Assembly (NCBI GenBank): GCA_017645955.1
Contig: JAGCNM010000037.1
Location: 1 to 61,782 of the forward strand
Direction: 5' to 3'
DNA length: 61,782 nt
Source of the DNA: Candidatus Saccharimonadota bacterium
GTDB taxonomy: Bacteria > Patescibacteriota > Saccharimonadia > Saccharimonadales > Saccharimonadaceae
The translations under genes and the position numbers were made by a program. Below are positions 27,887 to 48,075 of the stretch, in pieces. The stretch's first letter is position 1. Every line of letters begins with the position of its first letter. The notes below the pieces were generated by a model, which did no database searches, was not told the DNA's origin, and saw only the letters and a list, made by a program, of their open reading frames with translations.

Positions 27887-28027
27887 AATAAGCCCGAAAC
27901 CCGGGCTTATTTTTAAAACAACGACCTAATATGCGAAAGCATTAAACCGGTTTTGGAATAAAGCGCATTATTCGGTCGAAAAATGTGTAAAACCCCTTGA
28001 AACGGGGTTGGTGGAGAGGTTTTTAGA

Positions 28028-29704
28028 TTAACTATCAGGGATATAAATAAAAATAGTGGTTGCGACTGGGCGAGCTACGCAACGGATAGAGATACCGCTG
28101 CTGCGAAAGTCATAGTCCGACGGATTGGCGTAGCCAGCGACATTGAAGGCCACGCGCCTCGCATCGAACTCACCGCTCACGACTGGCGACCAGAAGTCGC
28201 CGCCGCGCCCGACACTGCCCAGCACGCCATCGAAGATCCCACTAGCGGGGAAGTAGAGCGGTTGAGTCCAAAGCGCCGTTTCGCCGGAATCGTAGGCATC
28301 ATCATTATCTGCATCAATAAAGCTCCCGTTTGTATTATTACCCATGTTGTATGAGTTCCATAAAGCATAGAAGGTATCGTCACCAGTTCCAATTCTAGGT
28401 AAAGTCCAACCGGCCGGGCAAATGGATTGTTCAATGAGTTCGTTTCGTGCAGTGTGGCTACTGCTATCGTTCATAGCCACAGCTGCAGTCCAGTTATAGT
28501 AGTTACCTAAATGAAGTTGAGCAGTACCAGTACTAGAAGTATAGGTAGAGAGTGGGTTGGTACCTGAGCAGCTTGGAGTAGAAGTACTGTAGTCACAAGT
28601 ACCGTAATATGTATCCCAATCATCGTAGTCGCTTAAAGCAGAGTTCCAATATAGGTCGCCTGGGTCGTAAGATTCGGGGGTATTATAGTTACAATAACCA
28701 TTTTCATAGAGCCCGCCTTGGCACCAAGCGTGCGTTTGTGATTGAGTAGTTTCGTAGGTTGAGCGAATTGGGGTCCAAGTGGCAGCCTCATATTGTCCAG
28801 TCGTAGTATTATAACCAATATCTGTGTCTTCGTTCGTATAAGTAGTATTAGAATCTAAATCTAGGTCTAGGTTTTTTGTCATCCAAACATTGTCGTCCGC
28901 TAGCTTCGCGATTGTATAGCTTTTTCCGTCGCGCTTATCTTTTAAGGTATATTGTTGTTCTAAGGTCATAGAAGTAACGATAGCGGAGGCGTCACCGGTT
29001 GCGAAATCTTGCATACATTTCGCGGCGGTAATGGTCGTAGCGTTAGGATTACAATCTATTGGCGTATTGGCGCTAGCTGGATGCACAATAGTATATTTTA
29101 CTTTTCCTGCATAAGTATCAGTCCTTTGAAGCCCAGAAACATAGGCGGCATAAGTAGTCTCTAACTTAGAGCCTAAAGTTAAATCAGTCGTAGAAGAAAA
29201 GGAAGCTACTTTAGTATAGGCATTAGGGACGGCACTATAAGAACCGAATCCATTCTCAATAGTTAAGTTAGCGGGATTATAAGCTTCGGAAGTATCAGTA
29301 ACCTTTGTTAATTTCATAGACCAGACTGAATCGGTAGTAGTGCCTTGTACATAAGTTCCAGTACTAATCTTTAAATCCGAAGCGATACCAATTAATTTTG
29401 TACTATCAGTTCCGCCAACTTCTTCACCAGTATAACCAGCCGCATAAATTGCAAATCCGCTTGCATCATTACAAAAGACAGTAAGTGTAGTTTTTCCAAT
29501 ATCTTCTCTATAAGTACCATTATTTACTACTGCGGAATGAGAGGTATTCCCATTTCCAGTAATAGCGCAAGAGACTGGAACCGAAACATTAACGTTAGAA
29601 ATTACCACATCTTCAGCAAAAACACCAACGCTAGAAAGTATAACACCAAGGACAAAAGTTAAGCCAACTAAGCCACTAGACACAAAGCATAAAGCCCTAT
29701 TCAT
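28028..29704 (-). CDS. secreted FISUMP (Fibrobacter major paralogous, CLec-like) protein; putative DGR target 1
   Basis: Signal peptide; D.RDGK.Y...KLAD..WM..NL, GNYYNW.AA, SICPAGWTLP, C-terminal SIRCVA. Confidence 0.85.
   Translation of the reverse strand: MNRALCFVSSGLVGLTFVLGVILSSVGVFAEDVVISNVNVSVPVSCAITGNGNTSHSAVVNNGTYREDIGKTTLTVFCNDASGFAIYAAGYTGEEVGGTDSTKLIGIASDLKISTGTYVQGTTTDSVWSMKLTKVTDTSEAYNPANLTIENGFGSYSAVPNAYTKVASFSSTTDLTLGSKLETTYAAYVSGLQRTDTYAGKVKYTIVHPASANTPIDCNPNATTITAAKCMQDFATGDASAIVTSMTLEQQYTLKDKRDGKSYTIAKLADDNVWMTKNLDLDLDSNTTYTNEDTDIGYNTTTGQYEAATWTPIRSTYETTQSQTHAWCQGGLYENGYCNYNTPESYDPGDLYWNSALSDYDDWDTYYGTCDYSTSTPSCSGTNPLSTYTSSTGTAQLHLGNYYNWTAAVAMNDSSSHTARNELIEQSICPAGWTLPRIGTGDDTFYALWNSYNMGNNTNGSFIDADNDDAYDSGETALWTQPLYFPASGIFDGVLGSVGRGGDFWSPVVSGEFDARRVAFNVAGYANPSDYDFRSSGISIRCVARPVATTIFIYIPDS
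28063..28255 (-). repeat. putative DGR variable region VR1
   Basis: 193-bp gap-free match to 41990-42182 with mismatches concentrated at codon positions 1 and 2. Confidence 0.85.
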
Positions 29705-29749
29705 ACCACCATATTACCATAAGGACAATTAATATTCAAACAATTTTAA

Positions 29750-30451
29750 CTATTCCGCATTTGTATAAACGTTCGTCACGTCGTCCAAATCATCAATCGC
29801 CGAAAGCAAACCTTCTAGTTTCTCCGCATTCTCGCCCTCAACTGGCACATAACTCGTCGGAACGTATTGTAGCTCCGCACTCGTTACCATCATCCCCGCT
29901 TCATCTAGCGCTTTTTTAACCTTCATCAAATCCGACGACTCCGTATAAATTACAATTCCCTCATCTTCTTCATTCGCATCCTCCGCGCCCGCCTCTAATG
30001 CCACCATTAACGCGTCTTCGCCTTTATCCGAAATCTCAATCACCCCTTTTCGCTTAAACTGGAACATCACTGAGCCCGAATCCGCCATTCGCCCACCATT
30101 CTTATCTAAAGTATGGCGAACTTCCGGCAAAGTACGATTCTTATTATCCGTCGCCACTTCAATCACAATCCCAACTCCGCCTGGTCCGTAAGCCTCATAA
30201 ACTTCTTCGATTAATGCCGCCGCCGACTTATCCGCTACCCGCGCAATCGCCCGTTCAATATTCGCCTTAGGCATATTCGCTAGTCGCGCCTTTTCTAGAA
30301 CCATAGCAAGGCTCGGATTCATATTCGGATCCGTTCCGCCTCTAGCTGCAATCGCAATCTGATTTCCGATTTTTGTAAAAAGCGCCCCTCTTTTCGCATC
30401 GACTACCGCTTTTTGTCTTTTCGTTGTCGCCCATTTGCTATGTCCAGACAT
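29750..30451 (-). CDS. yebC: YebC/PmpR family protein
   Basis: MSGHSKWA, YEAYGPGG, TDNKNRT, DDVTNVYTN. Confidence 0.95.
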   Translation of the reverse strand: MSGHSKWATTKRQKAVVDAKRGALFTKIGNQIAIAARGGTDPNMNPSLAMVLEKARLANMPKANIERAIARVADKSAAALIEEVYEAYGPGGVGIVIEVATDNKNRTLPEVRHTLDKNGGRMADSGSVMFQFKRKGVIEISDKGEDALMVALEAGAEDANEEDEGIVIYTESSDLMKVKKALDEAGMMVTSAELQYVPTSYVPVEGENAEKLEGLLSAIDDLDDVTNVYTNAE

Positions 30452-30503
30452 ATTGACTCCAAAATAAAATTAATAGTATTCTTCCCTATATTTTATCATA
30501 TTC

Positions 30504-31277
30504 TTATCCATTATTCAAATCGCTTGGCGCATCAACTTTTAGCTCATTGTCACGATTAACCGTTGGAGCCATACTCTCATCTTGTAGTGGCGGCATTGCA
30601 TCACGCTCAGCTTTCGCTTTCTCAGCTTCTAACCTTATCTGAACTTCCTTCTCGACCGCCGCCTTCGTATCGGCTTCCTTCTTTATCTCTTCTAGAGACG
30701 CTTTTTTGACAGCCTGATCATTTCGACTAATTTTTGACATCACTAGCGCCGTAATCCAACCAGTCATAAAGCAAGCCGAAAACACTCCTTCAAGATTCAA
30801 AATCTTAGACAATTCTCCTAAATCCTCCGAGAAAATCATTATCGTAGTAATCAGCCAAATACCAATTCCAGAAAACACTGCCACATTTCTTAGTAGACTA
30901 ACTACTTTTTCATTAACCTTAATACGTAGCACTAAAGCACCTGCAATCGCTGCAATCATTGTGACCGTCGTGAATGAAGTAAACTTTCCTATCGCCGTTA
31001 AACTATACGAAAAGAATCCAGTCGTTTCCATGTAAGAAAACGCTCCCCAAACCAACAAAAGCTGTAGTAAAACGCTCACGGCCCCAAACCCTAGCCCAAT
31101 CATTGCTAAAATTCTAGAAGCCTTTCCTCCCTTTTCAATACACCTCAAGGCTAAAACCGCCACCAGTAAAGCCTCGGCAAATATCCAAAACATTCCTTGG
31201 AATTTCGGATAAAATGGCTCCTTTACTACCTTGGCTGTCTCAGAGTTTATCATCTTATAAGTATCATAATAGTCCAT
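30504..31277 (-). CDS. multi-pass membrane protein; may be the 3' part of a gene starting at 31397 and broken by a TAA
   Basis: About 5 TM helices and a charged tail; in-frame upstream ORF at 31281-31397. Confidence 0.65.
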   Translation of the reverse strand: MDYYDTYKMINSETAKVVKEPFYPKFQGMFWIFAEALLVAVLALRCIEKGGKASRILAMIGLGFGAVSVLLQLLLVWGAFSYMETTGFFSYSLTAIGKFTSFTTVTMIAAIAGALVLRIKVNEKVVSLLRNVAVFSGIGIWLITTIMIFSEDLGELSKILNLEGVFSACFMTGWITALVMSKISRNDQAVKKASLEEIKKEADTKAAVEKEVQIRLEAEKAKAERDAMPPLQDESMAPTVNRDNELKVDAPSDLNNG

Positions 31278-31377
31278 TCTTTAACCCTCCACTAGTACTA
31301 GTATTGCCCAAATAAGCGCATCGACCAACAAAGCAATAATTAAAACCTTAACTACTGTTACCCTTATTTTACTTATA

Positions 31378-32835
31378 TTATTTATAAAACTTTCCATGTC
31401 TCTTATTATACCATAAGCGTTTAAAGCACCTTATTACAAATGGTAAAACAATTAACCCGTACAAAATAAATACCCAACTATTATTAGCGGGTATTTCAAT
31501 TAAAAACATTCTCATCTCACCAAAAAAATTCACCACTAAAATATGGAAATCCAGTAGCTTCGTTGCTAAAAACCCTATCATTGTTTCAACTCCCGGAACT
31601 CCCATAAAAACTCCGGCTAGAAATACTAGCCCCATCGCATAAGAAAGCGTCGGTAGAATTAACAAGTTGGCAATCACCGAAACGAGCGAAACCGTCCCAT
31701 AATAATATAAAGTAATCGGCAGCGTCATCAACGTCGCCGCGATTGTCGTTAAAATAACCGAACCAAAAAATCCCGGTTTCTTTTCGCCATAAAAAAACTG
31801 ATTGAGTCTCGGGCCTAAAATCATAATTCCGCCATAACTCGCAAACGACAAAAGCCAACCTAAATTAAAAAGAAAATTCGGATTCAGCATCAATGTAAAC
31901 GCTGCAACAATCAAAATAATCCGCCACGGCATAATTTTCCGCCCCACATACCATACCAACAAATTTAAAATAGCCATAATACCCGCTCTTAAAATTGACG
32001 GCGTCCACCCAACCATCGCCATAAAAAACACGATAAATAAAATTGAAAACAACAGCCCCGAAAACCGCGACAATTTCCCGAAAACTTTTCTCGCAATCTC
32101 TACTAAAATCGATAAATGTGCTCCACTCGCCACTACAATATGTACTAGTCCTACTATTCTTAACTTTTCACTCAACTCATCTGGAAGCCCCGTTTTCATA
32201 CCGAGAAGATACGAAAGCCCTAACGACACTTCGGGTTCCGATATTAGACTCCGAATTCGTTCCGAAAACCAATTTCGAACTTTTAACACTAAATCTCCTG
32301 GCTCCGGCCGATTCCAAGAAACGATTTTTGGCCGATACATATAACCCGCATACGTCCCGAATCCCTCGCTCATTTTTCCTGAAATCGTAACCTTATCACC
32401 CCGCGCTAGCTTTTCGTTTTTGTAACTTGAAATAAAAACACTCCCACTTACTTTATATTCCCCATTTTCACCAAACCTCAAATCCTGAAGCTTTAGTTTA
32501 GTTCCACTCTCATCCGTTTCCGGATCCCCAACAATCGTCCCACTAACCGAAACCATCTGACCAAAAAATTGCCGAATATATTCTTCCCCATAAAGCTCCG
32601 ACGAAACCCGAAAAAAAGCCAATAAAATCCCCGCAACTAACGCAAAAATCATCATCCATCTTCTCGGATTAAATAGTGTAAAAACACATAAAGCTACCGC
32701 AACAACAACCCAACCTATTACGCTAAAAAACTGTACTCTAAAAACTAACCCCAAAATAGCGCCTAGTACTATTCCGACACAAACAAGCACCACCACCCAT
32801 GACTGATGTACTTTTTCTCCCAAAAACCTCAGCAT
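31378..32835 (-). CDS. comEC: ComEC/Rec2 DNA uptake channel without the beta-lactamase-like domain
   Basis: GLVHIVVASGAHL, PSILRAGIM, GWLLSF. Confidence 0.92.
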   Translation of the reverse strand: MLRFLGEKVHQSWVVVLVCVGIVLGAILGLVFRVQFFSVIGWVVVAVALCVFTLFNPRRWMMIFALVAGILLAFFRVSSELYGEEYIRQFFGQMVSVSGTIVGDPETDESGTKLKLQDLRFGENGEYKVSGSVFISSYKNEKLARGDKVTISGKMSEGFGTYAGYMYRPKIVSWNRPEPGDLVLKVRNWFSERIRSLISEPEVSLGLSYLLGMKTGLPDELSEKLRIVGLVHIVVASGAHLSILVEIARKVFGKLSRFSGLLFSILFIVFFMAMVGWTPSILRAGIMAILNLLVWYVGRKIMPWRIILIVAAFTLMLNPNFLFNLGWLLSFASYGGIMILGPRLNQFFYGEKKPGFFGSVILTTIAATLMTLPITLYYYGTVSLVSVIANLLILPTLSYAMGLVFLAGVFMGVPGVETMIGFLATKLLDFHILVVNFFGEMRMFLIEIPANNSWVFILYGLIVLPFVIRCFKRLWYNKRHGKFYK

Positions 32836-32927
32836 ATCATTCCCCTATCATGCCATAGAAAAAACTTCAACCCCCTCATTCCGCCTAGGCTTTAAAAGAG
32901 AAGCAAAAAGTGATATAATTACAACAC

Positions 32928-33004
32928 GCACCCGTAGCTCAGTGGATTAGAGCATCTGTCTTCGGAACAGAGGGTCGTGGGTTCGAGTCCCTCCGGGTGT
33001 ACCA
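32928..33004 (+). tRNA. tRNA-Arg(UCG)
   Basis: Acceptor GCACCCG/CGGGTGT, arm TCTGT-CTTCGGA-ACAGA, encoded CCA. Confidence 0.92.
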
Positions 33005-33044
33005 TAAAAAATAAGGCCGAGGGCCATATTTTTATTTCATATTT

Positions 33045-35729
33045 TTACCAATTTATCTCCGTCTCGTTTACGATGTTATTTACTATCTTTCTGGCATCCC
33101 GAATATCCACATTATCATTATCATCTACATCTGCAAGTTTCCATGCCATATTGGAAAGAGAGTCTTTCCCTATAATTGAATTTATGATTTTCCTAACATC
33201 CCGAATATTTACAGCTTTATCAACATTCGCATCACCTACATAAAACACCCTTACTTCTGTCACGCTGGCATCGGTGATGCTGAATGAGCGCATATTGTTA
33301 CTCCCGTCAATCATATTAGATGCTAGACGATTCCATGTTATCCCATTATCGCGTGTCCAAAGCGCCATGCAGGCCTTATCACTTGTTACTGTGAATCTAT
33401 TCGCAGCAATCATATCAATAGTTGCCCCGTTATTCGTATTATTTATTACATTGCAAGTAGCCGCTACAATGTTTACTTTAAAACTTGTACTCATATTTTC
33501 AAATTTAACAGTAATCGTTTTTTCGCCTACTGTTGTATTATCAAATCCACTTACATTCACACTGTCATTTGGCAAGTAAATAGTTTCTTTAGAGCCATCA
33601 TTGTATGTTACTTCTATAGAGCATCCAGCTAAATCTAATTCTCCATTATTTACTACATAATCTAATTTTGTTGGTTCGTTAATTATGCTTATATCATGCA
33701 CCTCTTTTATAACTAATTCAGGTCGCAGTATCACATAGTAATCTTTGTCATATAGGGTTTGATAGTTTATATAAGACAATTCGTTATCCTTCTCTTCTTC
33801 TGTTAGCTTTGCATATCCAGCATACAAATGATTAGTAAGATTAATCCCTTTATCATTATAGTAATTCCATGTAAAACTATTCCTTTCATTTTCTTCTCCA
33901 GTATAATTATTACCCACAAATCTATCATTTATATACACATAAGCATACAAACCAGATTCTTTTGTATGAATAAGACCTGAATCTGTTTCGCTATAATCTA
34001 CCGTATAGATAAGCACATCACCATCTTTAAAATCTATAGAGTTAATCATTTTCTTTCTTTTATCGCTAGATGACCATCTTGGTAATGTATAAACGGATGT
34101 TTCATTGTCATCTTCCATTCCTGTCGAATTATCATCATCGTTATTAGATGAAGTACTGGATACTAATTTTACTAAGCCACTATAGTAGTTATTTAAAATC
34201 ATTTGTTGAAAAGCTTTTGACTCAGCATCGACATTATCTTTTAATACTACGGCGTTGGTCGCTCCTTTAGCTGTTACATTTTTTTTGTTTATAATGTTTG
34301 TAAAATTAAATTCTTCTAAATTAAAACTGTTTCCTCTTGCACATTCATACACTTTACTAATCAATTCCAGACCAGTATATGAATCCTTATAACTACTAAA
34401 GCAATTCCCATAACTTATTGAAGGCACAGACACTCTAGGAATAATTTTATTCTTTACTAGACCAGTAGGTATTCTTACGCCATTATCTATTCCGTCATAA
34501 AAATATCCATTAGCTTCTATATCATTATTTATAATATCAAGGTCATCCTTCACTTTAACCGTATATGTTAATTCTATACTATCATCCACACCTAAACTTG
34601 AAATATTCCAACTAATCGTATTATTAGAAAAATTGCTATTATTGTTAGATGATAAATATGTAACTTCATCTCCAATTATTTCATTTATCTTAAAACCTGA
34701 ATAATCTTCACCGTTATAAGTTGTATTACTCATATTTTTTACTCTGATTGTATATGTAAGTTCATCATCTGGATAAACACTATTATTATCGCCTTTATCA
34801 ACCGTCTTCTCAATAAACAATCCTGGATACTTTAGTCTGAGCATACTTTTTCTATAGTTATCAGGATTTATTTTGTAATTAAATATAGCTTTGCCATTAT
34901 CATTATAGTATGCTCTTATTACAACACATTCTTCATTAGCACATTTTATTCTGCCATTTTTAACAAGTTTAGTATTCTGACTAAGCCAAAAATAATTTAT
35001 GTTTCCCTCTTTTTCAACGTCTACAATATTGTTATTTCCGTGACTACTAGCAAATATCTTATAGTAAAGATTACTCGTCCCATTTATACGAGTCCTTATA
35101 TTGCTACCACCAGAAGATTGCAGCATTAGAACATCCCATGTTCCATCTTGTTTCTGAACCTTATCATAAGCTACCATGACATGACCCGTATAAGTAAACA
35201 TATCTCCTGGCTGTATCAATTGTGCAAAGTCCGATATATCATCCGAATCATTGTATATGTACTTTATGCCATCAGATTTCTTTTCCAAATATAGCAAATA
35301 TGTACCATCACGAGGATTATCTTGGTTTGAATAATATCTTATGGCGGCATTAGTTACTTCTGTATTATATCTGGGAAAACCATCATAATCATATTTGACG
35401 CCAAAAGCTTCTGAATAAACATCGTAATTATATGCCGCGCATACAGAATGTAATATGTCCTGACTAGTTCCCTCCTCGGGAGCTTCTATCCCATACTTCG
35501 TTTTGGCATAATTGTATTGCATACGCGGCCCCCTGATATAGTAAGATCGCATGACCTCTTTTACAATTTTCTGCGCATCTTCATATGCCCCATATTCACC
35601 CTCTACAAGATTAACACTATAAGCCTTATTGAAACTAACACTTATAACACTACACATCAGCAATATCATAATAATCATTGTCATTATTATTTGTGACCTT
35701 TTCTTCGTATTGCTGATACTCATTACCAT
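33045..35729 (-). CDS. secreted protein: NlpC/P60-like domain, DUF11-like domain, Ig-like domain and C-terminal dockerin
   Basis: Signal peptide; SVCAAY...IQPGDMFTYTGHVMV; IEKTVD...LTYTIRVKN; PTKLDY...LDL.G.....Y.DG...GFD....G.KTITV; two dockerin repeats GDANVDKAVNIRD and ADVDDNDNVDIRD. Confidence 0.8.
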   Translation of the reverse strand: MVMSISNTKKRSQIIMTMIIMILLMCSVISVSFNKAYSVNLVEGEYGAYEDAQKIVKEVMRSYYIRGPRMQYNYAKTKYGIEAPEEGTSQDILHSVCAAYNYDVYSEAFGVKYDYDGFPRYNTEVTNAAIRYYSNQDNPRDGTYLLYLEKKSDGIKYIYNDSDDISDFAQLIQPGDMFTYTGHVMVAYDKVQKQDGTWDVLMLQSSGGSNIRTRINGTSNLYYKIFASSHGNNNIVDVEKEGNINYFWLSQNTKLVKNGRIKCANEECVVIRAYYNDNGKAIFNYKINPDNYRKSMLRLKYPGLFIEKTVDKGDNNSVYPDDELTYTIRVKNMSNTTYNGEDYSGFKINEIIGDEVTYLSSNNNSNFSNNTISWNISSLGVDDSIELTYTVKVKDDLDIINNDIEANGYFYDGIDNGVRIPTGLVKNKIIPRVSVPSISYGNCFSSYKDSYTGLELISKVYECARGNSFNLEEFNFTNIINKKNVTAKGATNAVVLKDNVDAESKAFQQMILNNYYSGLVKLVSSTSSNNDDDNSTGMEDDNETSVYTLPRWSSSDKRKKMINSIDFKDGDVLIYTVDYSETDSGLIHTKESGLYAYVYINDRFVGNNYTGEENERNSFTWNYYNDKGINLTNHLYAGYAKLTEEEKDNELSYINYQTLYDKDYYVILRPELVIKEVHDISIINEPTKLDYVVNNGELDLAGCSIEVTYNDGSKETIYLPNDSVNVSGFDNTTVGEKTITVKFENMSTSFKVNIVAATCNVINNTNNGATIDMIAANRFTVTSDKACMALWTRDNGITWNRLASNMIDGSNNMRSFSITDASVTEVRVFYVGDANVDKAVNIRDVRKIINSIIGKDSLSNMAWKLADVDDNDNVDIRDARKIVNNIVNETEINW

Positions 35730-36056
35730 AAGCTAATTATATAGTACCTACTATACTTATTCAATATATCCGTATAAATAAGCTCAGATACGGCGTAATA
35801 CAAATTAGGTACCCTTAATGAGAGAATAATAGGCACGATGGGCAATTTCCGCTTATCAAATCTTCCCTTAGCATAGTTGCAACTTCTTTCACTAGGGTGT
35901 ACCAAGATATTAAAAAGAGCCTTTAGGCTCTATTTTAATATCTTAAAACCATAAAAACTATTGACTTTTTTAACAAAGTGTGCTATAATATATAAATATA
36001 CTCGCACATTAAAAGAGAATGGCGAAATCTCACAATAAATAGAGGGGGAGACAGTA

Positions 36057-36353
36057 ATGAACGTCAAAATCGAAGGCCTCGAAGAACTCTGCGAGAAGCT
36101 CGGAAAGAGCGACCTCTCCGAGAAGGAAATGGTGGCCATCATCATCGAACGGGCCAGAGGAAACAAGCTCATCGAGCTCGATGCCTGGTTGAACGAAGGC
36201 TCCGAGACAAATCCGTCTCCCGCTTTTGAATGGAGCGAGGACGAATGGAAAAGATGGCTCCTCTCCTGCATCGAAGAAGATGACAAAAAATCCCGTGGGA
36301 GATTCGACGGAATATCCGTTTACACAATCACAGACGTAATCGTCTGTGATTAA
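36057..36353 (+). CDS. hypothetical acidic protein, 98 aa
   Basis: TTGACT/TGCTATAAT promoter upstream, G-rich Shine-Dalgarno, C-ending codon bias. Confidence 0.6.
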   Translation: MNVKIEGLEELCEKLGKSDLSEKEMVAIIIERARGNKLIELDAWLNEGSETNPSPAFEWSEDEWKRWLLSCIEEDDKKSRGRFDGISVYTITDVIVCD

Positions 36354-36382
36354 GAGCCGTAAAAGTAAAAGGAGGGCAAAGC

Positions 36383-36694
36383 ATGTATATCTACGGCAAA
36401 ACACATATCGACAAAAACGACCGCATCCTTCTCTCAGGCTTCTTCGCACCCGAAGAACTGCCTGGGAAAATCGTACTGGTCGTCGATGCCGGAATGGAAA
36501 TGATCACTGTCATCAAAGCGGAAGAAAAACCGGAGCTCGGGACAGCCATCCCGGTCGACGAAAAGGGTCGCGTGACCCTACCGAAATGGCTGAGAGAAGA
36601 GCTGAAGCCCAGTCTTAACGACGAGAACGAATTGTTCTTCGTCTACGACGGAGGCAAACGCTACATCTCTCCGAAAACCGGGGACATTCTCTAA
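36383..36694 (+). CDS. MraZ/AbrB-like DNA-binding protein
   Basis: Two swapped-hairpin motifs, IDKNDRILL and VDEKGRVTLPKWLRE; AAGGAGG Shine-Dalgarno; hairpin after the stop. Confidence 0.7.
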   Translation: MYIYGKTHIDKNDRILLSGFFAPEELPGKIVLVVDAGMEMITVIKAEEKPELGTAIPVDEKGRVTLPKWLREELKPSLNDENELFFVYDGGKRYISPKTGDIL

Positions 36695-36744
36695 CGCCAA
36701 AAGGCGCCGAGTCTATCTCGACGCCTTTTTCCTTGCAAAAAAAA

Positions 36745-36821
36745 TGGTAGTACCGACTGGGATCGAACCAGTGACCTTGGGCTTATGAGTCCCACGCTCT
36801 AACCATCTGAGCTACGGTACC
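36745..36821 (-). tRNA. tRNA with CAU anticodon, most likely elongator Met (Ile2 not excluded)
   Basis: Acceptor GGTACCG/CGGTACT, loop CTCATAA, encoded CCA. Confidence 0.9.
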
Positions 36822-36862
36822 AACTTCGTTCATTGTACCATAAAATATGTTATAATTAAAGC

Positions 36863-37252
36863 ATGAACTATAAGAAAGGCTTTACAATATTAGAGATAAT
36901 CATCGTCGGCATCTTCGCTGGCCTACTTTTAATCTTTTTCTTTATCCAAAAGTCCAATATCGACGCCATGGAACGCGATGAAGACCGTAAAACTGCTATT
37001 AACGCAATGTACTATGCTCTCGAAGAAAGCTTTTATCCTGAAAACGGCTACTACCCTGAATTTATCTCCGAAGAAAACATTAAAGTCATTGACCCTGCGC
37101 TCTGGACCGACCCGCTTGGGTTTAACCTTGGTAGCTCTCTAAGCTCCTACTCTTACGAACCAGCCAACTGCAACAACGGCAAATGTAAAGAATACGTCTT
37201 AAAAGCCGAACTTGAAAAAGAAGACGCCTATACGAAATACAATCGTAATTAA
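36863..37252 (+). CDS. type IV pilin / pseudopilin G-like protein
   Basis: KKGFTILEI, RDEDRK...ALE....NGYYP, DP.G. Confidence 0.85.
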   Translation: MNYKKGFTILEIIIVGIFAGLLLIFFFIQKSNIDAMERDEDRKTAINAMYYALEESFYPENGYYPEFISEENIKVIDPALWTDPLGFNLGSSLSSYSYEPANCNNGKCKEYVLKAELEKEDAYTKYNRN

Positions 37253-37830
37253 TCCTCTTTCTTCTTCTTACTAATCTTTTTAGCTTCTGTAATTAGTTTT
37301 GTTACAGCTTTAAGCTCTGAAGGTTCTATATCGGAATACTTAAATGTATATGTCGTTTCGTCGCCAACCGTCGAAAGTCTAAACGTTCCGTAATGGAACA
37401 TCTTTTCAAGCAAGCTATTTTGTCTAAAACTCGCATCTTCAACCGAAGCTAGGTCAATAATATTAATCGAATCCGACACTAGCGTATCCATCACCATTTG
37501 AATCACATGCTTATTCGTAATAAAAAGCTTATTCCCGCGATAAATCCTAAGAGCAATCACGCCAATAATAATCGCCGCCGCTAGTAACGCAAACAAAATG
37601 ATAAACAGAAAATGTCTCCCCATCTCATCTATCATAGATTGAGCCAGCAAAGTCAACAAAAACGCCAGTAAAATCAAAATCAATCCCCCCGCCGTTCCCC
37701 CAAGAATCAAGAATAGACAAACCTTCGCCCGCGAAAACGCAAATTCAACATATTCATCATCCTCAAGCTTCAAGCCAGGAAAGTCCTTTACGCTTCGTTC
37801 ATGCCTTATTTTAGCTAAGTTGCTGTCCAT
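37249..37830 (-). CDS. membrane protein with a bacterial PH domain
   Basis: Two TM helices, then ITNKHVI and MFHYGTFRLSTVG. Confidence 0.75.
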   Translation of the reverse strand: MDSNLAKIRHERSVKDFPGLKLEDDEYVEFAFSRAKVCLFLILGGTAGGLILILLAFLLTLLAQSMIDEMGRHFLFIILFALLAAAIIIGVIALRIYRGNKLFITNKHVIQMVMDTLVSDSINIIDLASVEDASFRQNSLLEKMFHYGTFRLSTVGDETTYTFKYSDIEPSELKAVTKLITEAKKISKKKKED

Positions 37831-37855
37831 TTATATCTTTTTCCTTTCATTTTCA

Positions 37856-38875
37856 TTATATCACATTTCCCCTGTTTTGTAAATGCTTCCTCCCTTTTTC
37901 TGTTACGACTCTTCCCTTTGGCGTTCGCGCGAGAAGACCAAGTTGCAATAAATATGGCTCATAAAAATCTTCTATTGTTGTCGCTTCGTCCCCCGTCAAA
38001 GCCGCAATCGTCGTAAGCCCTACCGGTCTATCTCCATAATTCTCATACATGAGTCGAAGCATATTTCGATCCGCCGGATCTAATCCTAACTCATCTATCT
38101 CCATAAGCTCTAAAGACCGCGTAGCAGTTTCCCTATCTATTATCCCGTCCCCATTCACATCCGCAAAATCTCTTACCCGCTTAAATATTCGATTTGCAAT
38201 CCTCGGCGTTAGCCTAGACCTTGTCGCGAGTAGTTTTGTCGCATCCGGCTTAATCTCAGTCTTTAAAATCCCCGCCGTCCGGTTAATAATCTCCTCAATT
38301 TCCGGCTCTTTATAATACTCTAAACGATGAATAATCCCAAATCTATCCCTTAAAGGCCCCGCGAGTGACCCAGTTCGCGTTGTTGCCCCGATAACCGTAA
38401 ACTTCGGTAAATCTAACCTCACCGACCTCGCTGCTGGCCCCTTTCCGATTACAATATCTAATTTATAGTCCTCCATCGCAGAATATAAAACCTCTTCAAC
38501 CGCCCGACGCAACCTATGAATTTCATCAATAAACAAAATGTCTCCGTCTTTTAGATTCGTTAAAATCGACGCTAAATCTCCCGCTCGTTCAATTGCCGGC
38601 CCCGAAGTTACCCTAAGCGACGCTCCGAGCTCGTGCGCAATCACTCCCGCCATCGTCGTTTTCCCGAGTCCTGGCGGACCATATAATAATATATGGTCTA
38701 GCGTCGAGCCATCATTACGTTTTTTAACCGCCGAAATAGCTAACTTAAGATTATTCTTGAGATGTTCCTGTCCAATGTACTCAGAAAACGATGTCGGTCG
38801 CAACGAAATCTCAATCCGTTTTTCCTCCGGATTGTCCTCCGCTAACGTCGGCTCCACTAACCTCTCAATTGCCAT
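37856..38875 (-). CDS. ruvB: Holliday junction branch migration helicase RuvB
   Basis: [38 protein letters not shown]. Confidence 0.97.
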
Positions 38876-38953
38876 ATCTGTATTATACTAAAAAACTCTT
38901 AAGACCGCAAAGTATTGTATAATTAGTACAAGCAGATTAAAAAGGATTTGAAA

Positions 38954-39763
38954 ATGGGAGAAAGACTAAACACCAGTAATAATACAAACGACGATTGGCA
39001 AGCGCCGGGTCTCAGTTATCCGCCTTCAGAATGGGTCTATAATCACACCGACGTCAAGCCTCAAGAAGTTGATCGCTTTGCACCCCAACCTACTGGCCTT
39101 TACGCTAATGCCGAACAAGCTTGGGGAGACATGTCTGAAGAAGAGCAACGAGCGAATCTTGAAAAACAACGTGAAGATCGCGAAACCGCTCAAGGGACCG
39201 TTGAATCAATCCTCGCAAAAGATGAACAAATGCTTCAAAACGTCGAAAAAATCGCTTTTGATGACAACATTCGCGCCGAATTTTTAAATGATTATAACGC
39301 GGCCACACTCGAACTCATCAACAAATACAACGGCGATTACTCCGAACAAGCCTCCGAAGAAGTGAATGCCTTCATCGGCGATTATTGTGCCGTGATTATG
39401 ACAATGGATAATTTACAACGCGCCGAAGGCCAGAGGCTTCTCGATGTCGCGAGTAACGGCGATCAAATCACGAGCGAAACCGGCGGCCTCGAACATATCG
39501 TCCGTTTTATGCAACAACGTCGAAAAAATGGTTGCAATGTCGACATCCCAGTCCCAATTCAATACTCCGAAGACAACCCACATCCTAAATTAGATGGCGT
39601 AGTAGTAACTAGCTGGCTTGAACAGCGTCTCGGTCGAAAAGAAATTGACACAACCGATAGCACAAACACCCTTAAAGAACAAGTAACCACAAAACTCACC
39701 GGTAAAACCGCTTACCAAAGATTTCAAGAACGCATGGCAGCTAGAAGAGACGCTAAGCAATAA
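38954..39763 (+). CDS. hypothetical acidic protein
   Basis: Long ORF with host-like codon usage; AAGGA upstream of ATG 38954. Confidence 0.7.
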   Translation: MGERLNTSNNTNDDWQAPGLSYPPSEWVYNHTDVKPQEVDRFAPQPTGLYANAEQAWGDMSEEEQRANLEKQREDRETAQGTVESILAKDEQMLQNVEKIAFDDNIRAEFLNDYNAATLELINKYNGDYSEQASEEVNAFIGDYCAVIMTMDNLQRAEGQRLLDVASNGDQITSETGGLEHIVRFMQQRRKNGCNVDIPVPIQYSEDNPHPKLDGVVVTSWLEQRLGRKEIDTTDSTNTLKEQVTTKLTGKTAYQRFQERMAARRDAKQ

Positions 39764-39776
39764 TACTTTTCTTTTA

Positions 39777-39849
39777 TTAGCGGTCTTGACATACGAGTGC
39801 TAGTGCGCTACAATAGAGACAATTAGCACTCACATACAACGAGTGCCAA
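39777..39849 (+). promoter_or_regulatory. dnaK sigma70 promoter with two CIRCE operators
   Basis: TTGACA (39786) N17 TACAAT (39809); CIRCE TTAGCGGTC-N9-GAGTGCTAG at 39777-39803 and TTAGCACTC-N9-GAGTGCCAA at 39823-39849. Confidence 0.92.
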
Positions 39850-39875
39850 CGCAAAGTAAAAGAAAGTGAGGAAAA

Positions 39876-41765
<1,890 letters not shown>

Positions 41766-41776
41766 TCATCACTAAC

Positions 41777-41804
41777 AAAAACAGGGCCAAAAGCCCTGTT
41801 TTTT
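41777..41804 (+). terminator. dnaK terminator
   Basis: AAAAACAGGGC-CAAAA-GCCCTGTTTTTT. Confidence 0.8.
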
Positions 41805-41945
41805 AAGGTTTTAAACATCCAATCGGAACCACAAATCTAACATCATTTTTTCAATATTTTATATTATGCGACCAGACATTTTAGCTTGGTCGCATCCTTA
41901 CGTAGTTGATTTGGGTTAAAAAGGCGGGAGGGGAAAAACTAGAAA

Positions 41946-43595
41946 CTAGGAATTACCTCCGCCGCCACCGCCCTCTGAAGTAGAGGAGACGACTGGGCGA
42001 GCTACGCAACGGATAGAGGTACCGCCGCCGCGAAGGCCGTAGTAGGACGGATCGGCGTTGCCATCGACACCGAAGAACGCGCCCCTCGCACTGATCTCAT
42101 CGCCGACGACCGGCGACCAGAAGCCGCCGTCGATCCCGACATTGAGCAGCACGCCATTGAAGTACCCACTAGCGGGGAAGTAAAGTGGACTACTCCACAC
42201 ATTAGAGATGTTAGTAAAACCATCGTTTTCATCATAGCCGTACTCTTCCCAAAGGGCTTGGAAGGAGTCATCGCCATTACCAATTCTAGGAAGGGTCCAG
42301 CCAGCTGGACAAATAGATTGTTCTATTAGCTCGCCGCTCGTATCGTAGTCACTGCTATCGTTCATGGCCACAGCAGCGGTCCAGTTATAGTAGTTACCTA
42401 AATGAAGCTGAGCGGTACCAGTACTAGATGTATAGGTTCCGATTGGATTAATACCTAAGCAGCTAGGAGTAGAGGTACTGTAGTCACAAGTACCGTAATA
42501 TGTTTCCCAGTCGCTATAGGCACTTAAAGTAGAGTTCCAGTAAAGGTCGCCTGGGTCGTAAGATTCGGGGGTGTCGTTCTCTTCGCAATAACCATATTCT
42601 GTATTAAAGAGTCCGCCTTGGCACCAAGTTGTAGTTTGTGAATTACTAGTCGCGTAAGTAGAGCGCATTGGACTCCAAGCCGCCGTTTCGTATTCGCCAG
42701 TCGTCGTGTTATAGCCAATATCGGTGTCCTCGTTTGTATAAGTATCACCAGCAACAAGGTCTAGGTCTAAATTCTGGGTCATCCAGACATTACCATCGGC
42801 AAGTTTAGCGATAGTGTATTCTTTTCCATCACGTTTGTCCTTTAGTGTATATTGTGTACCCGTAGCAAGTGAAGTCATAATCGCATCATGATTCTCTCCT
42901 GCGAAATCTTGCATACATTTTACTTCTGAGATAGTGGTTGCATTAGGATTACAGGCTACTGGAGCTGAATGAGTGTTTGGATGTACCATTACATACTTAA
43001 CCTTACCAGTATAAGTATCCGCAGGTTGAGTATTAGAAATGAAGACTTGGTAGGTAGTAGTAAGTATGGAACCGGTAGCTCCAGTACCTACATCAGTAGC
43101 GGCAGTACGTTTAGCTACTAATGTATAGTCGTCTGGTACTGTATGGAATGAATCAAAGCTGTTTTGGATAGTAATAGGATAAGCCGGTTCTGGACTAGTC
43201 TGTGTCGCTAGTTTCATAGCCCATTGTGAGTTACCGGAAGTAGAAGTTCCAGTAGGAATGTTAACTGGAGAGGTTAGAGTAGTAGAAACTAGATTATTAT
43301 TACCATCTGTATTATTAGTATATCCAATAGCATATATAGCAAAGCCATTACTATCATTACAGAAGGCTTTTAGTGTGGTAGTTCCTACTTCTGAATTATA
43401 AGTACCCGGGTTAATGGTTGCGTTATGGGAGTTCATGCCAATACCTTCCAATGAACAGGCGGCTGGAACTGTAATATTAATAACATCTACTACTGAGTCA
43501 TCAGCAGAGACAATACTAGAAGATAAGACAAAACTAGAAAGAATAGTCAAAAAAGATAGAATAACTGCTGGAGCGTATGACCTATTAATGCTCAT
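41946..43595 (-). CDS. secreted FISUMP/CLec-like protein; putative DGR target 2; start at ATG 43595
   Basis: Close paralog of 28028-29704; TATACT 6 nt before MSINRSY; C-terminal SIRCVARPV. Confidence 0.85.
   Translation of the reverse strand: MSINRSYAPAVILSFLTILSSFVLSSSIVSADDSVVDVINITVPAACSLEGIGMNSHNATINPGTYNSEVGTTTLKAFCNDSNGFAIYAIGYTNNTDGNNNLVSTTLTSPVNIPTGTSTSGNSQWAMKLATQTSPEPAYPITIQNSFDSFHTVPDDYTLVAKRTAATDVGTGATGSILTTTYQVFISNTQPADTYTGKVKYVMVHPNTHSAPVACNPNATTISEVKCMQDFAGENHDAIMTSLATGTQYTLKDKRDGKEYTIAKLADGNVWMTQNLDLDLVAGDTYTNEDTDIGYNTTTGEYETAAWSPMRSTYATSNSQTTTWCQGGLFNTEYGYCEENDTPESYDPGDLYWNSTLSAYSDWETYYGTCDYSTSTPSCLGINPIGTYTSSTGTAQLHLGNYYNWTAAVAMNDSSDYDTSGELIEQSICPAGWTLPRIGNGDDSFQALWEEYGYDENDGFTNISNVWSSPLYFPASGYFNGVLLNVGIDGGFWSPVVGDEISARGAFFGVDGNADPSYYGLRGGGTSIRCVARPVVSSTSEGGGGGGNS
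41990..42182 (-). repeat. putative DGR variable region VR2
   Basis: Same length as VR1, with identical 29-nt 3' end and 18-nt 5' end. Confidence 0.85.
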
Positions 43596-43656
43596 GGTTA
43601 TAGTATACACTACCATAGAAAAGAGTCAAGTTATCAAAACATGTTATAATAACCTT

Positions 43657-44409
43657 ATGAAAATCATCATTCCCGAATTAGAAAATCCCTTCGTGAGAGC
43701 AGCCATTAAAGAATTTCCGGATGTCGAATTCATCCCGGCCGAAAACCTTGATGCTGCCGCCGAAATGTTAAAAAACCAAGAGGCCGATTCTATCATCTCC
43801 GGTATCGACTACCCTTCGCGCGACGTCGCCATCACTTTTAAAAACCATCTCCCTCTAAAATCCGCTTTCTTTTCAAGTAGCTTTATCTGCAAAAAAGACG
43901 ATAAAATCCTTGCTCTCGCCGACGGCGGCATCAATAAACAGCCTGACGCCGAAAAACTTTATTGTATTGTCGAAGATACCGCTGAGACTTTTAAAAACTA
44001 TACAAAAAAGCAACCTAAAATCGCCATGCTTTCCTATTCAACTTACGGTTCCGGCGGAAAAAATCCCGATCTCGAAAAAATCCATTTTGTCATCGAAAAA
44101 ATCCGCGAAAAGCATCCTGACTATCTCATCGACGGCGAAATGCAATTAGACGCTGCTATAAACCCGCGCATCGCCGCGAAAAAAACTCCTAATTCCCCGC
44201 TGGGCGGCGACGCCAACATCCTCATCACTCCCGACTTAAACTCCGGAAATATCCTTTATAAATCCCTCGAACAATTCGGCGGTTTTATCTGCGCCGGCCC
44301 CATTATCCAAGGCTTTAAAATGCCTCTCGCCGATCTCTCTCGTGGCAGTACCGTAGAAGATATTACTCTGACTATCGACATCATTAAAAAACAACTCGAA
44401 AGGAACTAA
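43657..44409 (+). CDS. pta: phosphate acetyltransferase family protein, short (about 250 aa)
   Basis: IIIPE, ALADGGIN..P, IAMLSYSTYGS, IDGEMQLDAA, PDLNSGNILYK, GPIIQG, DLSRG; leaderless ATG 43657. Confidence 0.85.
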   Translation: MKIIIPELENPFVRAAIKEFPDVEFIPAENLDAAAEMLKNQEADSIISGIDYPSRDVAITFKNHLPLKSAFFSSSFICKKDDKILALADGGINKQPDAEKLYCIVEDTAETFKNYTKKQPKIAMLSYSTYGSGGKNPDLEKIHFVIEKIREKHPDYLIDGEMQLDAAINPRIAAKKTPNSPLGGDANILITPDLNSGNILYKSLEQFGGFICAGPIIQGFKMPLADLSRGSTVEDITLTIDIIKKQLERN

Positions 44410-46214: not shown

Positions 46215-48050
46215 CTAACTACCAGAAAAGAGGCAGCGAATGCTCCTTCCGTAGGATTTGTAATAGTTATGGCTTGGATTGACACTAGTAGAACTCAGGC
46301 CAAAATCATACGCTAGGTTAGGCGACGTTGTCGCTGTAGACGACCAATAACCACTGTACGAACCACGACCACTTCCTGAACCACTACTACTAACGTCGCC
46401 AGAATAAACAAAATTATTAGGATAACTCCTAAATCTACTAGACATAACTACTCCTGTTGGATTAGAGCTACTATCTGCAATAGCTCCACCTTCTGGACCA
46501 CCCAAAGCTACACTAAGTGCGCCAAAGCTTCTATCTGTTACAGATTGGTTACTTATTGGCAATCTCCATCCAGTAGGACAAATCGAAGTAGTACCATGAT
46601 CGCTACCATCGGCATAATGAACAGTATCCGCGATAGCAGCAGCCCAAGTGTAGTAGTTACCATAACTATACATACCAGCATTAGTGGTACTATTGGTAGC
46701 TGAGTTGGATGTAGGATTCTGTGGACGATCCGAAGAGGCAGTTGGGGTATTCATATTGTTATAACGCGGGAATCTGTAACCTGCAATGCTATTACCAATA
46801 TTTATCGTATTATTACTACCGTCTATACTATATAGACTATTGGCGGTAGTATCGTCAATTCCCCATAAAGCTTCTGGAGCCGCTAAACCAGAAAAATTAC
46901 CATAAGTAATGCTTGTACCATAACCTTGAGCAAGGGCTCCGTCACCGTTATGACCTGCGGTATTTTCTAACCTTAAATTTTCAATCATCCAGCAGTTACC
47001 ATCCGCGAGTTTAGCGACCGCGTAGGTTTCGTTATCCCGCTGGTCAGTTAAAGCCGTAACGGCGCCTTCTTGGAGAAATGGACAACCGGTCCAATCTTGG
47101 AGATTACCAGCGGATTTAATCCAATGAGCGTAGAGGGAAAGGCCATTGTTTTGTCCAGTGTAGGTTCCAGCGGGGAATTCAATGTATTCTTGCGGGCCAT
47201 AGAAGCCTTCTGAATCAGAATAGTCATAAGTCGTAGACCAACCAGCGAAGCCGTAGCCATCGCGGCTGAAGTTAGAAGCGAGAAGCGTAGCATTGGTAGT
47301 AGATGCCGTAATCGTCTGGCACCCCATCGAACCTAGAACCATACCGCCATTAGGATAGTAGCAGATTTTACCAGCTTCAGTAGTCTCTTCGTGAAGCGGG
47401 ATTTCAGTAGCTGGATGAACTAGAGTGTAGATGACTTTACCATTATAAGTACCAGCAGGTTGTTCTGGAGAAGCATAGGCTCTATAAGTAGTAGTGAGGG
47501 TAGCACCAATAGCATTAAGGCCCATGTCTGTAATACCATTTCTTGAAGCTACTTTAGTGTAAGCTGAGGGAATTACGTGATAAGAACCGAATGAACCATT
47601 AGTATCAGAAGCTAGAGTGATTGGATAAGTAGCATTACTATCAGTAGTTAGTTTCATAGCCCATTGGGAGCTATTACCATTTAGTAGTAAACCAGTATCA
47701 ATAGTGTCTGTACCGGATGAGGCTACTAGTTTAGTACTATTAGTACCTCCTACTTCATTACCAGTATATCCTGCAGCATAGATAGCGAAGCCTTCATTAT
47801 CGTTACATGTTACAGTGAGAGTTGTAGAACCAATGTCTTCTTTATATGTACCGTTACTTACTATATCCGTATGAGCGGAGTTTAGTGTACTAGATAGTGT
47901 ACAGGAGACTTGGATGGAGAGAGAAACATTATCTATGACGGAGTCGGCGGCGGAGACATTATAAGAAGAGAGAATCAAGAACGAAAAAAGAGAACAGCTA
48001 ACCAAGAAAAAACACAAACAAATCATTAAAGACTTGGCGCTTTTTACCAT
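46215..48050 (-). CDS. secreted FISUMP/CLec-like protein, third paralog; start at ATG 48050
   Basis: Same N-terminal domain as the two DGR targets; DQRDNETY..KLADGNCWMIENL, GNYYTWAAA, SICPTGWRLP, SIRCL. Confidence 0.82.
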   Translation of the reverse strand: MVKSAKSLMICLCFFLVSCSLFSFLILSSYNVSAADSVIDNVSLSIQVSCTLSSTLNSAHTDIVSNGTYKEDIGSTTLTVTCNDNEGFAIYAAGYTGNEVGGTNSTKLVASSGTDTIDTGLLLNGNSSQWAMKLTTDSNATYPITLASDTNGSFGSYHVIPSAYTKVASRNGITDMGLNAIGATLTTTYRAYASPEQPAGTYNGKVIYTLVHPATEIPLHEETTEAGKICYYPNGGMVLGSMGCQTITASTTNATLLASNFSRDGYGFAGWSTTYDYSDSEGFYGPQEYIEFPAGTYTGQNNGLSLYAHWIKSAGNLQDWTGCPFLQEGAVTALTDQRDNETYAVAKLADGNCWMIENLRLENTAGHNGDGALAQGYGTSITYGNFSGLAAPEALWGIDDTTANSLYSIDGSNNTINIGNSIAGYRFPRYNNMNTPTASSDRPQNPTSNSATNSTTNAGMYSYGNYYTWAAAIADTVHYADGSDHGTTSICPTGWRLPISNQSVTDRSFGALSVALGGPEGGAIADSSSNPTGVVMSSRFRSYPNNFVYSGDVSSSGSGSGRGSYSGYWSSTATTSPNLAYDFGLSSTSVNPSHNYYKSYGRSIRCLFSGS

Positions 48051-48075
48051 AATAATTATATTATAGCACAAACAG

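What the first reader, a model, noticed from the sequence alone, without database searches (positions are those of the whole stretch)
28063..42182. Two dispersed surface-protein genes carry sister DGR-type variable regions
Seen: 28063-28255 and 41990-42182 are a 193-bp gap-free repeat at the 3' ends of two FISUMP/CLec-like genes, and are visibly more GC-rich than the rest of those genes. By hand alignment 28 codons differ. 24 are non-synonymous, and all 24 keep the third base while changing position 1 and/or 2. 23 of those are NNC/NNT codons (ATC/TAC, GGC/CTC, CGC/ATC, GCC/TTC, AAT/GGT and others). Only 4 codons differ at the third position. The upstream homologous part of the same genes (about 28460-28680 vs 42350-42570) shows the opposite, ordinary pattern of mainly third-position changes. 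Established: DGR reverse transcriptases randomise adenines of AAY-rich template repeats in C-terminal CLec-fold domains, which gives this pattern. Inference: both genes are hypermutated from one template, giving a variable adhesin repertoire in a probable epibiont.
Basis: partly seen in the sequence, partly recalled or inferred. Interest (0 to 1): 0.92.

Follow-up and report, generated by a model that had tools for sequence, protein, structure and literature searches.

The report
Frozen DGR targets after cassette deletion
The GC-rich tails of these two predicted surface-protein genes match, almost everywhere except at adenines, a template that a close relative keeps beside a reverse transcriptase, but this gut Saccharibacteria genome lacks that 2.5-kb cassette at the same site, so the tails are most likely frozen products of a lost diversity-generating retroelement rather than a live variable repertoire.

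Summary
A third sister region lies on contig C15 and a decayed fourth on C20. A metagenome contig of a close relative (L068) holds the missing template (TR): 28 of 31, 29 of 30 and 31 of 35 differences of the three regions fall on its adenines. There, TR, a reverse transcriptase and an Avd-fold accessory gene sit between dnaK and the target gene. The window keeps both flanks but has 36 bp in place of 2,538 bp; a 2025 run bridges the same empty site. No RT, accessory gene or TR RNA was found in this assembly, and gene A's region is unchanged in four runs from two studies. So one template did write both genes, but the system is likely dead here. Relatives show the live form: RT in 212 of 368 genus genomes, TR convergent with RT in 30 of 31 pairs, a covarying leader RNA with no Rfam match, a 289-aa Avd fusion, and two further empty sites. 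The scan has reported orphan DGR regions in other Saccharibacteria before (unchecked notes). Verdict: relic of a variant DGR; interest moderate.

The parts
28028..29704 (-). Gene A, 558 aa: N-terminal hydrophobic segment, beta-sandwich domain, FISUMP domain ending in the variable region; remote former DGR target
28063..28258 (-). Variable region of gene A; template homology stops after the codons for RCVARP
   Evidence: 28 of 31 differences from the L068 template at adenines over 28065-28258; 3' ends compared
27991..28009 (-). Short GC-rich inverted repeat downstream of gene A (6-bp stem); role untested, may be only a terminator
   Evidence: read from the sequence printed
41946..43616 (-). Gene B, 556 aa, paralogue of gene A; occupies the place of the cassette-adjacent target
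41955..42186 (-). Variable region of gene B with its template-homologous 3' extension
   Evidence: 29 of 30 differences at template adenines over 41992-42185; 85.8% identity over 232 bp
41918..41938 (-). Non-coding IMH-like motif after the stop codon of gene B; in relatives TR/VR homology ends here with a fixed A (TR) versus C/T (VR) difference
   Evidence: 16 of 16 relatives show the difference; function inferred
41867..41894 (.). 8-bp inverted repeat downstream of gene B, also present in L068; role untested
   Evidence: sequences printed
41802..41867 (-). Remnant of the DNA directly upstream of the accessory gene's ribosome-binding site in L068 (88% identity over 67 bp)
41766..41801 (.). 36-bp scar with a hairpin flanked by A/T runs, standing where L068 has 2,538 bp (leader RNA, TR, RT, accessory gene); the terminator scan did not call it
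   Evidence: (joint 386 to 2925 in run X4 with the same 36 letters)
39876..41765 (+). dnaK, left flank of the empty cassette site
   Evidence: 90.7% identity to L068

Best explanation
The two GC-rich gene ends match the adenine-rich template of a relative's DGR cassette almost everywhere except at adenines, and that cassette is absent from its site beside gene B, so they are most likely frozen variable regions left after this lineage deleted its DGR. Shown: the template match, the empty site with both flanks, no RT/accessory/TR found in the assembly, unchanged gene A region in four runs. Inferred history: (1) a unit of target gene, accessory gene, RT and a convergently transcribed TR RNA settled between dnaK and pta; (2) RT with an Avd-fold partner copied the TR RNA with errors at adenines, and the copies replaced the 3' ends of at least three FISUMP genes (B beside the cassette, A 14 kb away, one on C15), each randomised independently; a fourth gene (C20) left this control long ago and drifted towards AT; (3) a recent deletion removed leader, TR, RT and accessory gene and fixed the last alleles. 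Gene A lacks the IMH-like 3' motif; it was reached either by cDNA pairing at the GC-rich end of its region or by recombination from a sister gene (not resolved). The proteins likely are exported binding proteins for a host cell or particle (inferred).
For: Template match: A 28 of 31, B 29 of 30, C15 31 of 35 differences at adenines, which are 53 of 194 positions. The template has 20 AAC/AAT codons and no codon that can mutate to a stop at adenines. L068 layout and flanks. Empty site bridged in run X4 of a second study, skip 2,538 bp, depth 25.7, no contig over most of RT or the accessory gene. No RT by Pfam, genus profile or tblastn; no accessory gene; no leader RNA. Frozen: 0 other letters over gene A's region in X1, X3, X4, X5. 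Recent: non-adenine third positions differ from the template at 5 of 180 (A, B, C15) against 142 of 629 in dnaK, P 3e-14; C20 18 of 60, with 15 of its 24 non-adenine differences C to T. Independent randomisation: shared derived bases 8 vs 6.7, 7 vs 9.8, 9 vs 9.9 expected. Remote targets exist in RT-bearing relatives: 22 of 28, 32 of 37, 25 of 25 differences at adenines. Parallel empty sites: G247 versus G340 and G354.
Against: The assembly is a 60-contig draft, and the runs are contigs, which drop rare variants. The bridging contig has only 28 letters on its short side and was laid at 80% likeness. The template comes from a related species, not from this lineage. The 67-bp remnant matches only L068, not the other eight cassettes compared, so it is not proved to be cassette DNA. 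A contig in run X8 (a more distant strain) carries a different allele, again at template adenines (table cut), so diversification went on after that split and may persist in other strains. Gene A has no IMH-like motif. The C-type lectin fold could not be modelled.
Confidence: 0.85

Rival explanations
1. The DGR is still active on these genes from a cassette that is unassembled, sits elsewhere, or is kept by a minority of the population.
For: Draft assembly in 60 contigs; contigs hide rare variants; a related strain in X8 has a different allele; RTs are common in the genus.
Against: Completeness 99.76% by marker genes; the expected site is empty within one contig and in X4; no RT or TR contig at depth about 25 in X4; identical region in 2021 and 2025 runs.
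Confidence: 0.08
2. This lineage never held the cassette at the dnaK site: L068 gained it by insertion, and the window's genes received already mutated variable regions by recombination from neighbours.
For: The usual order in the genus is dnaK then pta (7 of 10 genomes); the cassette lies at different sites in different species; the paralogues are mosaic, so recombination among them occurs.
Against: The window keeps DNA that ends right at the accessory gene's ribosome-binding site; gene B keeps the template-homologous tail and IMH-like motif; three genes would each need a separate import; G097 also has dnaK next to the TR.
Confidence: 0.06
3. Positive selection plus gene conversion between paralogues, with no retroelement.
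For: Paralogues are mosaic.
Against: A real non-coding template beside an RT explains 88 of 96 differences across three genes; selection has no reason to spare all bases except template adenines.
Confidence: 0.01

Closest known systems
DGRs with category 'd' / CLec2 targets (DUF1566, DUF823, Fib_succ_major), exemplified by Legionella LdtA (Wu et al. 2018, PMC5758913; passages and two sections read)
   Same: C-terminal variable region in a Fib_succ_major-type exported protein; AAC-rich template; adenine-specific changes at codon positions 1-2; several targets, some non-adjacent.
   Different: Here the cassette is absent from the genome. In relatives the TR lies convergent with the RT under its own predicted promoter, homology runs through the stop codon to a non-coding IMH-like motif, and the accessory protein is 289 aa. 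Wu et al. note that TR and RT can be on different strands and list a core order avd-RT-TR (B2), so the layout is not unprecedented; they say CPR DGRs tend to have one target.
Bordetella phage BPP-1 DGR (bRT, Avd, TR RNA; bioRxiv 10.1101/2023.10.23.563531, abstract and two sections read)
   Same: Accessory C-terminal domain matches Avd (4dwl Z 14.3, rmsd 2.1 A over 106 residues). A duplex between RNA upstream and downstream of the TR is predicted in 9 of 17 cassettes, like the 'cPRT Stop' duplex.
   Different: BPP-1 Avd is 128 aa and its upstream RNA lies inside avd; here about 170 extra N-terminal residues of unassigned fold precede the Avd domain, and the upstream RNA is a separate leader of about 190 nt with covarying hairpins.
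Saccharibacteria DGRs (one in TM7x; McLean et al. bioRxiv 10.1101/258137, passages read)
   Same: Same phylum; reduced epibiont-type genome.
   Different: That preprint found no further RT-bearing DGR in its G1-G6 genomes, including the G3 (Nanosyncoccus) group; here 212 of 368 genomes of this genus carry a related RT, and 31 of 41 RT loci examined show a TR/VR pair.

Membership tests
DGR variable region (product of a DGR) | Near-identical template differing mainly at template adenines | tested here: met
   28 of 31, 29 of 30, 31 of 35 against the L068 template; template is from a relative
DGR variable region (product of a DGR) | Template adenines mostly at codon positions 1-2 of AAY codons, no reachable stop | tested here: met
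   20 AAC/AAT codons, no stop reachable; per-codon counts
DGR variable region (product of a DGR) | Position at the C-terminus of a C-type-lectin-fold domain | tested here: inconclusive
   C-terminal and FISUMP for gene A, which Wu et al. group with CLec2; own model has pLDDT under 50 there
DGR variable region (product of a DGR) | IMH at the 3' end, differing from IMH* of the template | tested here: inconclusive
   Conserved motif with fixed TR/VR difference in 16 of 16 relatives and kept in gene B and C15; absent in gene A; function not tested
Complete active DGR in this genome | DGR-type RT gene in the genome | tested here: not met
   draft assembly, 99.76% complete by markers
Complete active DGR in this genome | Template repeat and its RNA in the genome | tested here: not met
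   BLASTN finds only the gene copies; leader model finds nothing, 150 of 273 candidates scored
Complete active DGR in this genome | Ongoing adenine-specific variation in the population | tested here: inconclusive
   No change in contigs of four runs; raw reads were not available
DGR cassette in relatives (L068 type) | RT next to a TR/VR pair with adenine bias | tested here: met
   17 of 21 loci and 14 of 20 further loci
DGR cassette in relatives (L068 type) | Avd-family accessory protein | tested here: inconclusive
   Fold match of residues 175-289 to Avd and its relatives (best hit 2gsc Z 17.4), but helical bundles score high easily and no Pfam bAvd hit in 39 members
DGR cassette in relatives (L068 type) | Mutagenic retrohoming activity | not testable with these tools
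   needs an assay or raw reads of a cassette-bearing population

The most novel reading that the evidence does not exclude
Gut Nanosyncoccus-type epibionts use a movable DGR module (Avd-fusion gene, RT, and a separately promoted, convergent, structured TR RNA) in a diversify-then-delete cycle: the module settles beside a FISUMP gene, randomises it and remote paralogues, including one with no IMH, and is then lost, locking in binding tips; repeated cycles plus paralogue shuffling build the roughly 23-gene FISUMP family, whose graded decay records the history.
Probability: 0.25. Interest if true: 0.75.

Novelty: new variant of a known kind. Interest (0 to 1): 0.5.

Why it matters
It gives a filled and an empty state of the same DGR site, so loss of a hypermutator and the decay of its footprints can be dated (1-4 non-adenine changes in recent targets, 24 in an old one). 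It shows that RT-anchored DGR surveys miss fossil targets. It points to a widespread DGR family on predicted surface proteins of gut Saccharibacteria, whose host-recognition proteins are poorly known, with a defined leader RNA, an Avd fusion and a target without the usual 3' motif, each testable in a reconstituted system. The window itself holds only the relic, which limits the score.

Tried and rejected
RT in own genome: Pfam RVT_1, a 28-sequence profile from relatives' RTs and tblastn all blank. Template by AAY density: top windows were ordinary Asn-rich coding or wrong-frame sequence. Rfam on four cassette loci gave only a tRNA and two weak unrelated rows. The accessory N-terminal part: MutS_I hit in 1 of 39 members at E 0.034, no usable Atlas hit, and the fold searches were filled by the C-terminal bundle, so its fold is open; the MutS-like idea is recalled, not shown. 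Target structure: model confident only to about residue 270; Foldseek gave weak pilin-like rows (best E 1e-3); no PDB sequence relative; the wide structural search for it was not run because the machine was busy. The 5'-3' RNA duplex failed in 5 of 17 cassettes and was weak in 3; the cognate pair ranked first in only 7 of 17. 'pta' hits beside target N-termini were opposite-strand shadows and were dropped by trimming the query. Missing RT cover in X7, X8 and X9 is not used as evidence, since depth is low. G204, G203 and G232 have sister regions without a matching template, but no filled counterpart was found, so they are not counted as empty sites. Literature searches for DGR with Saccharibacteria, Nanosyncoccus, Saccharimonadia, orphan or lost cassettes found no description of this system in the listings; Paul et al. 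2017 on CPR DGRs was not held and may cover the layout; supplements of PMC5758913 (1 file) and PMC8144416 (two files not searched) had no Saccharibacteria term, but such catalogues may list these elements under other labels.
Full report
Observation. The upstream control shows 18 third-position against 9 first/second-position differences. The genome (912 kb, 60 contigs) has a third close copy on C15 and a weaker one on C20. Of 23 reading frames ending in a FISUMP-like motif, only genes A, B and the C15 gene have GC of 0.61-0.63 in the last 60 codons; C20 has 0.54.

Organism. Runs holding this DNA are labelled mostly gut or bovine gut metagenome. Named relatives of the target and accessory proteins are Candidatus Saccharibacteria. 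The three named contigs with the closest RT (76-77%) are titled Saccharibacteria bacterium (two) and Candidatus Nanosyncoccus sp. (one), so the genus is likely Nanosyncoccus (inferred). An epibiotic life is taken from what is known of the phylum.

The template. An exact search of metagenome contigs with the invariant 3' end returned three matches on two contigs of one assembly. L068 carries a non-coding copy with AAC/AAT at the variable codons, beside an RT (RVT_1 over cut-off), a 289-aa gene, dnaK and the end of a target gene; L069 is the gene A orthologue. Over 194 bp, of which 53 are adenines, differences from this template fall on adenines at 28 of 31 (A), 29 of 30 (B), 31 of 35 (C15), 24 of 27 (L069) and 28 of 52 (C20). 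The template could encode about 10^29 protein variants with no stop. Derived bases are shared between copies at chance level, so each was randomised separately.

The empty site. In L068 the order is dnaK, leader and TR on the dnaK strand, then RT, accessory gene and target on the other strand. The window has dnaK directly beside gene B. Homology ends at the dnaK stop (41765) and resumes at 41802 with the DNA just upstream of the accessory gene's ribosome-binding site; 36 bp replace 2,538 bp. Run X4, from a different study than the best holder, has a contig across this joint with the same 36 letters (depth 25.7; short side only 28 letters) and no cover over most of RT and the accessory gene. 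No RT, accessory gene, template or leader RNA was found in the assembly. Gene A's region has no other letter in X1, X3, X4 and X5, and the gene B contig shows the same listed 34-difference pattern in all four; these are contigs and cannot show rare variants. A more distant strain (X8) carries another allele.

Timing. Non-adenine third positions differ from the relative's template at 5 of 180 sites in A, B and C15, against 142 of 629 in dnaK. So these regions were rewritten long after the two species split: the template is either strongly constrained or was shared laterally, and the loss is recent either way. C20 (18 of 60, mostly C to T) is an older fossil.

The live system in relatives. The L068 RT has relatives in 212 of 368 other genomes of the genus. 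In a first draw, RVT_1 hit 29 of 36 genus genomes and 5 of 24 genomes of other families (some of these hits are the long, group II-like type). Of 21 loci of the closer RTs, 17 show a full TR/VR pair, all with the TR just beyond the RT's 3' end on the opposite strand; in 10 the TR is inverted relative to the adjacent target and in 7 the whole module is flipped. Of 20 further, more distant loci, 14 show a pair and 13 of these are convergent; most targets are FISUMP-like. Remote targets were confirmed in 3 of 5 RT-bearing genomes searched. Upstream of all 17 TRs lies a leader of about 190 nt after a -10-like box; 18 of 31 predicted pairs show two-sided changes, 95% of cells pair against 81% in shuffles (0 of 500) and 33-45% when slid (structure derived from the same alignment); Rfam has no match. 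A model of it hit 11 of 150 sampled genus genomes, 8 of them training sequences. Its 5' end is predicted to pair with RNA just after the TR in 9 of 17 (z at most -3.5), resembling the BPP-1 cPRT Stop duplex. TR/VR homology runs past the target's stop codon to a motif where the TR has A and the target C or T in 16 of 16 relatives, an IMH/IMH*-like pair (inferred). Gene B and C15 keep it; gene A and L069 do not, and their tails drift at third positions. The accessory protein models well (pLDDT 86.7); residues 175-289 match Avd-type bundles, and the rest is unassigned.

Other losses. G247 and G340 share the target at 96.9% over 2,155 bp and the far flank, but G247 lacks the 2.5-kb module; its region differs from G340's template at adenines in 22 of 25 places. 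G354 keeps only the leader directly after its target. Neither is among the RT hits. The three junctions leave different remnants, which fits independent deletions better than a precise excision enzyme (inferred).

The proteins. One N-terminal hydrophobic segment and none later; a confident beta-rich domain with weak resemblance to chaperone-usher pilins; a FISUMP domain. Wu et al. file Fib_succ_major variable regions under category d/CLec2. Binding function is inferred.

Comparison and verdict. The window's regions work like, and descend from, DGR variable regions; the genome fails the test for a complete DGR. The relatives' cassette is a DGR with an uncommon layout. Opposite-strand TRs, multiple and remote targets and Fib_succ_major targets are in print (PMC5758913, passages and sections 21-22; PMC6602519, passages, which call opposite-strand cases rare). 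PMC8144416 (passages) discusses inactive DGRs; PMC11661182 and PMC11659515 (term searches) did not discuss this genus's DGRs. Earlier notes of this scan describe orphan regions in other Saccharibacteria (unchecked); none matched this template by sequence. What is added here is the paired filled and empty site, parallel losses, the leader RNA, the Avd fusion and the target without the 3' motif. Novelty: new variant of a known kind; interest 0.5.

Noticed in passing
G000:C15:1769-3478: The third target gene is a mosaic: 89-97% identical to gene B over about the first 700 nt, 93-95% to the C20 gene in the middle, 87-92% to gene A just before the variable region, with a template-like tail. Paralogue shuffling adds a second layer of variation.
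   Followed up: partly
G000:C20:3028-3241: Decayed fourth variable region: 28 of 52 differences at template adenines, and 15 of the 24 others are C to T.
   Followed up: yes
window 46215-48101 and 54077-60811: Two more FISUMP-family genes (628 aa; 2,244 aa with repeated FISUMP-like blocks and Listeria-Bacteroides repeats) without the GC-rich tail; 23 such frames genome-wide.
   Followed up: partly
L068:2732-2915 (-) and 16 related loci: Structured leader RNA of about 190 nt upstream of the TR with its own -10-like box and no Rfam match; the RNA's 3' part runs antisense towards the RT's 3' end.
   Followed up: yes
L068:401-1267: 289-aa accessory protein: long N-terminal helices and an alpha/beta domain of unassigned fold, fused to an Avd-type bundle.
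   Followed up: partly
L068:197-344: 146 bp with three short GC-rich direct repeats between target and accessory gene; missing from the window.
   Followed up: no
G204 C27/C24/C11, G203 C4/C7, G232 C2/C4, G011 C2: Further genomes with two or three sister variable regions and no matching template found.
   Followed up: partly
L117, L118, L179, L180, L186, L197, L198: RT loci of the genus with no TR/VR pair or AAY-rich stretch in the fetched DNA; some are near contig ends, others may be decayed cassettes.
   Followed up: no
window 43414-44409: The listed 331-aa pta frame overlaps the start of gene B on the other strand; the Pfam match begins at residue 110, so the true start is likely later.
   Followed up: partly
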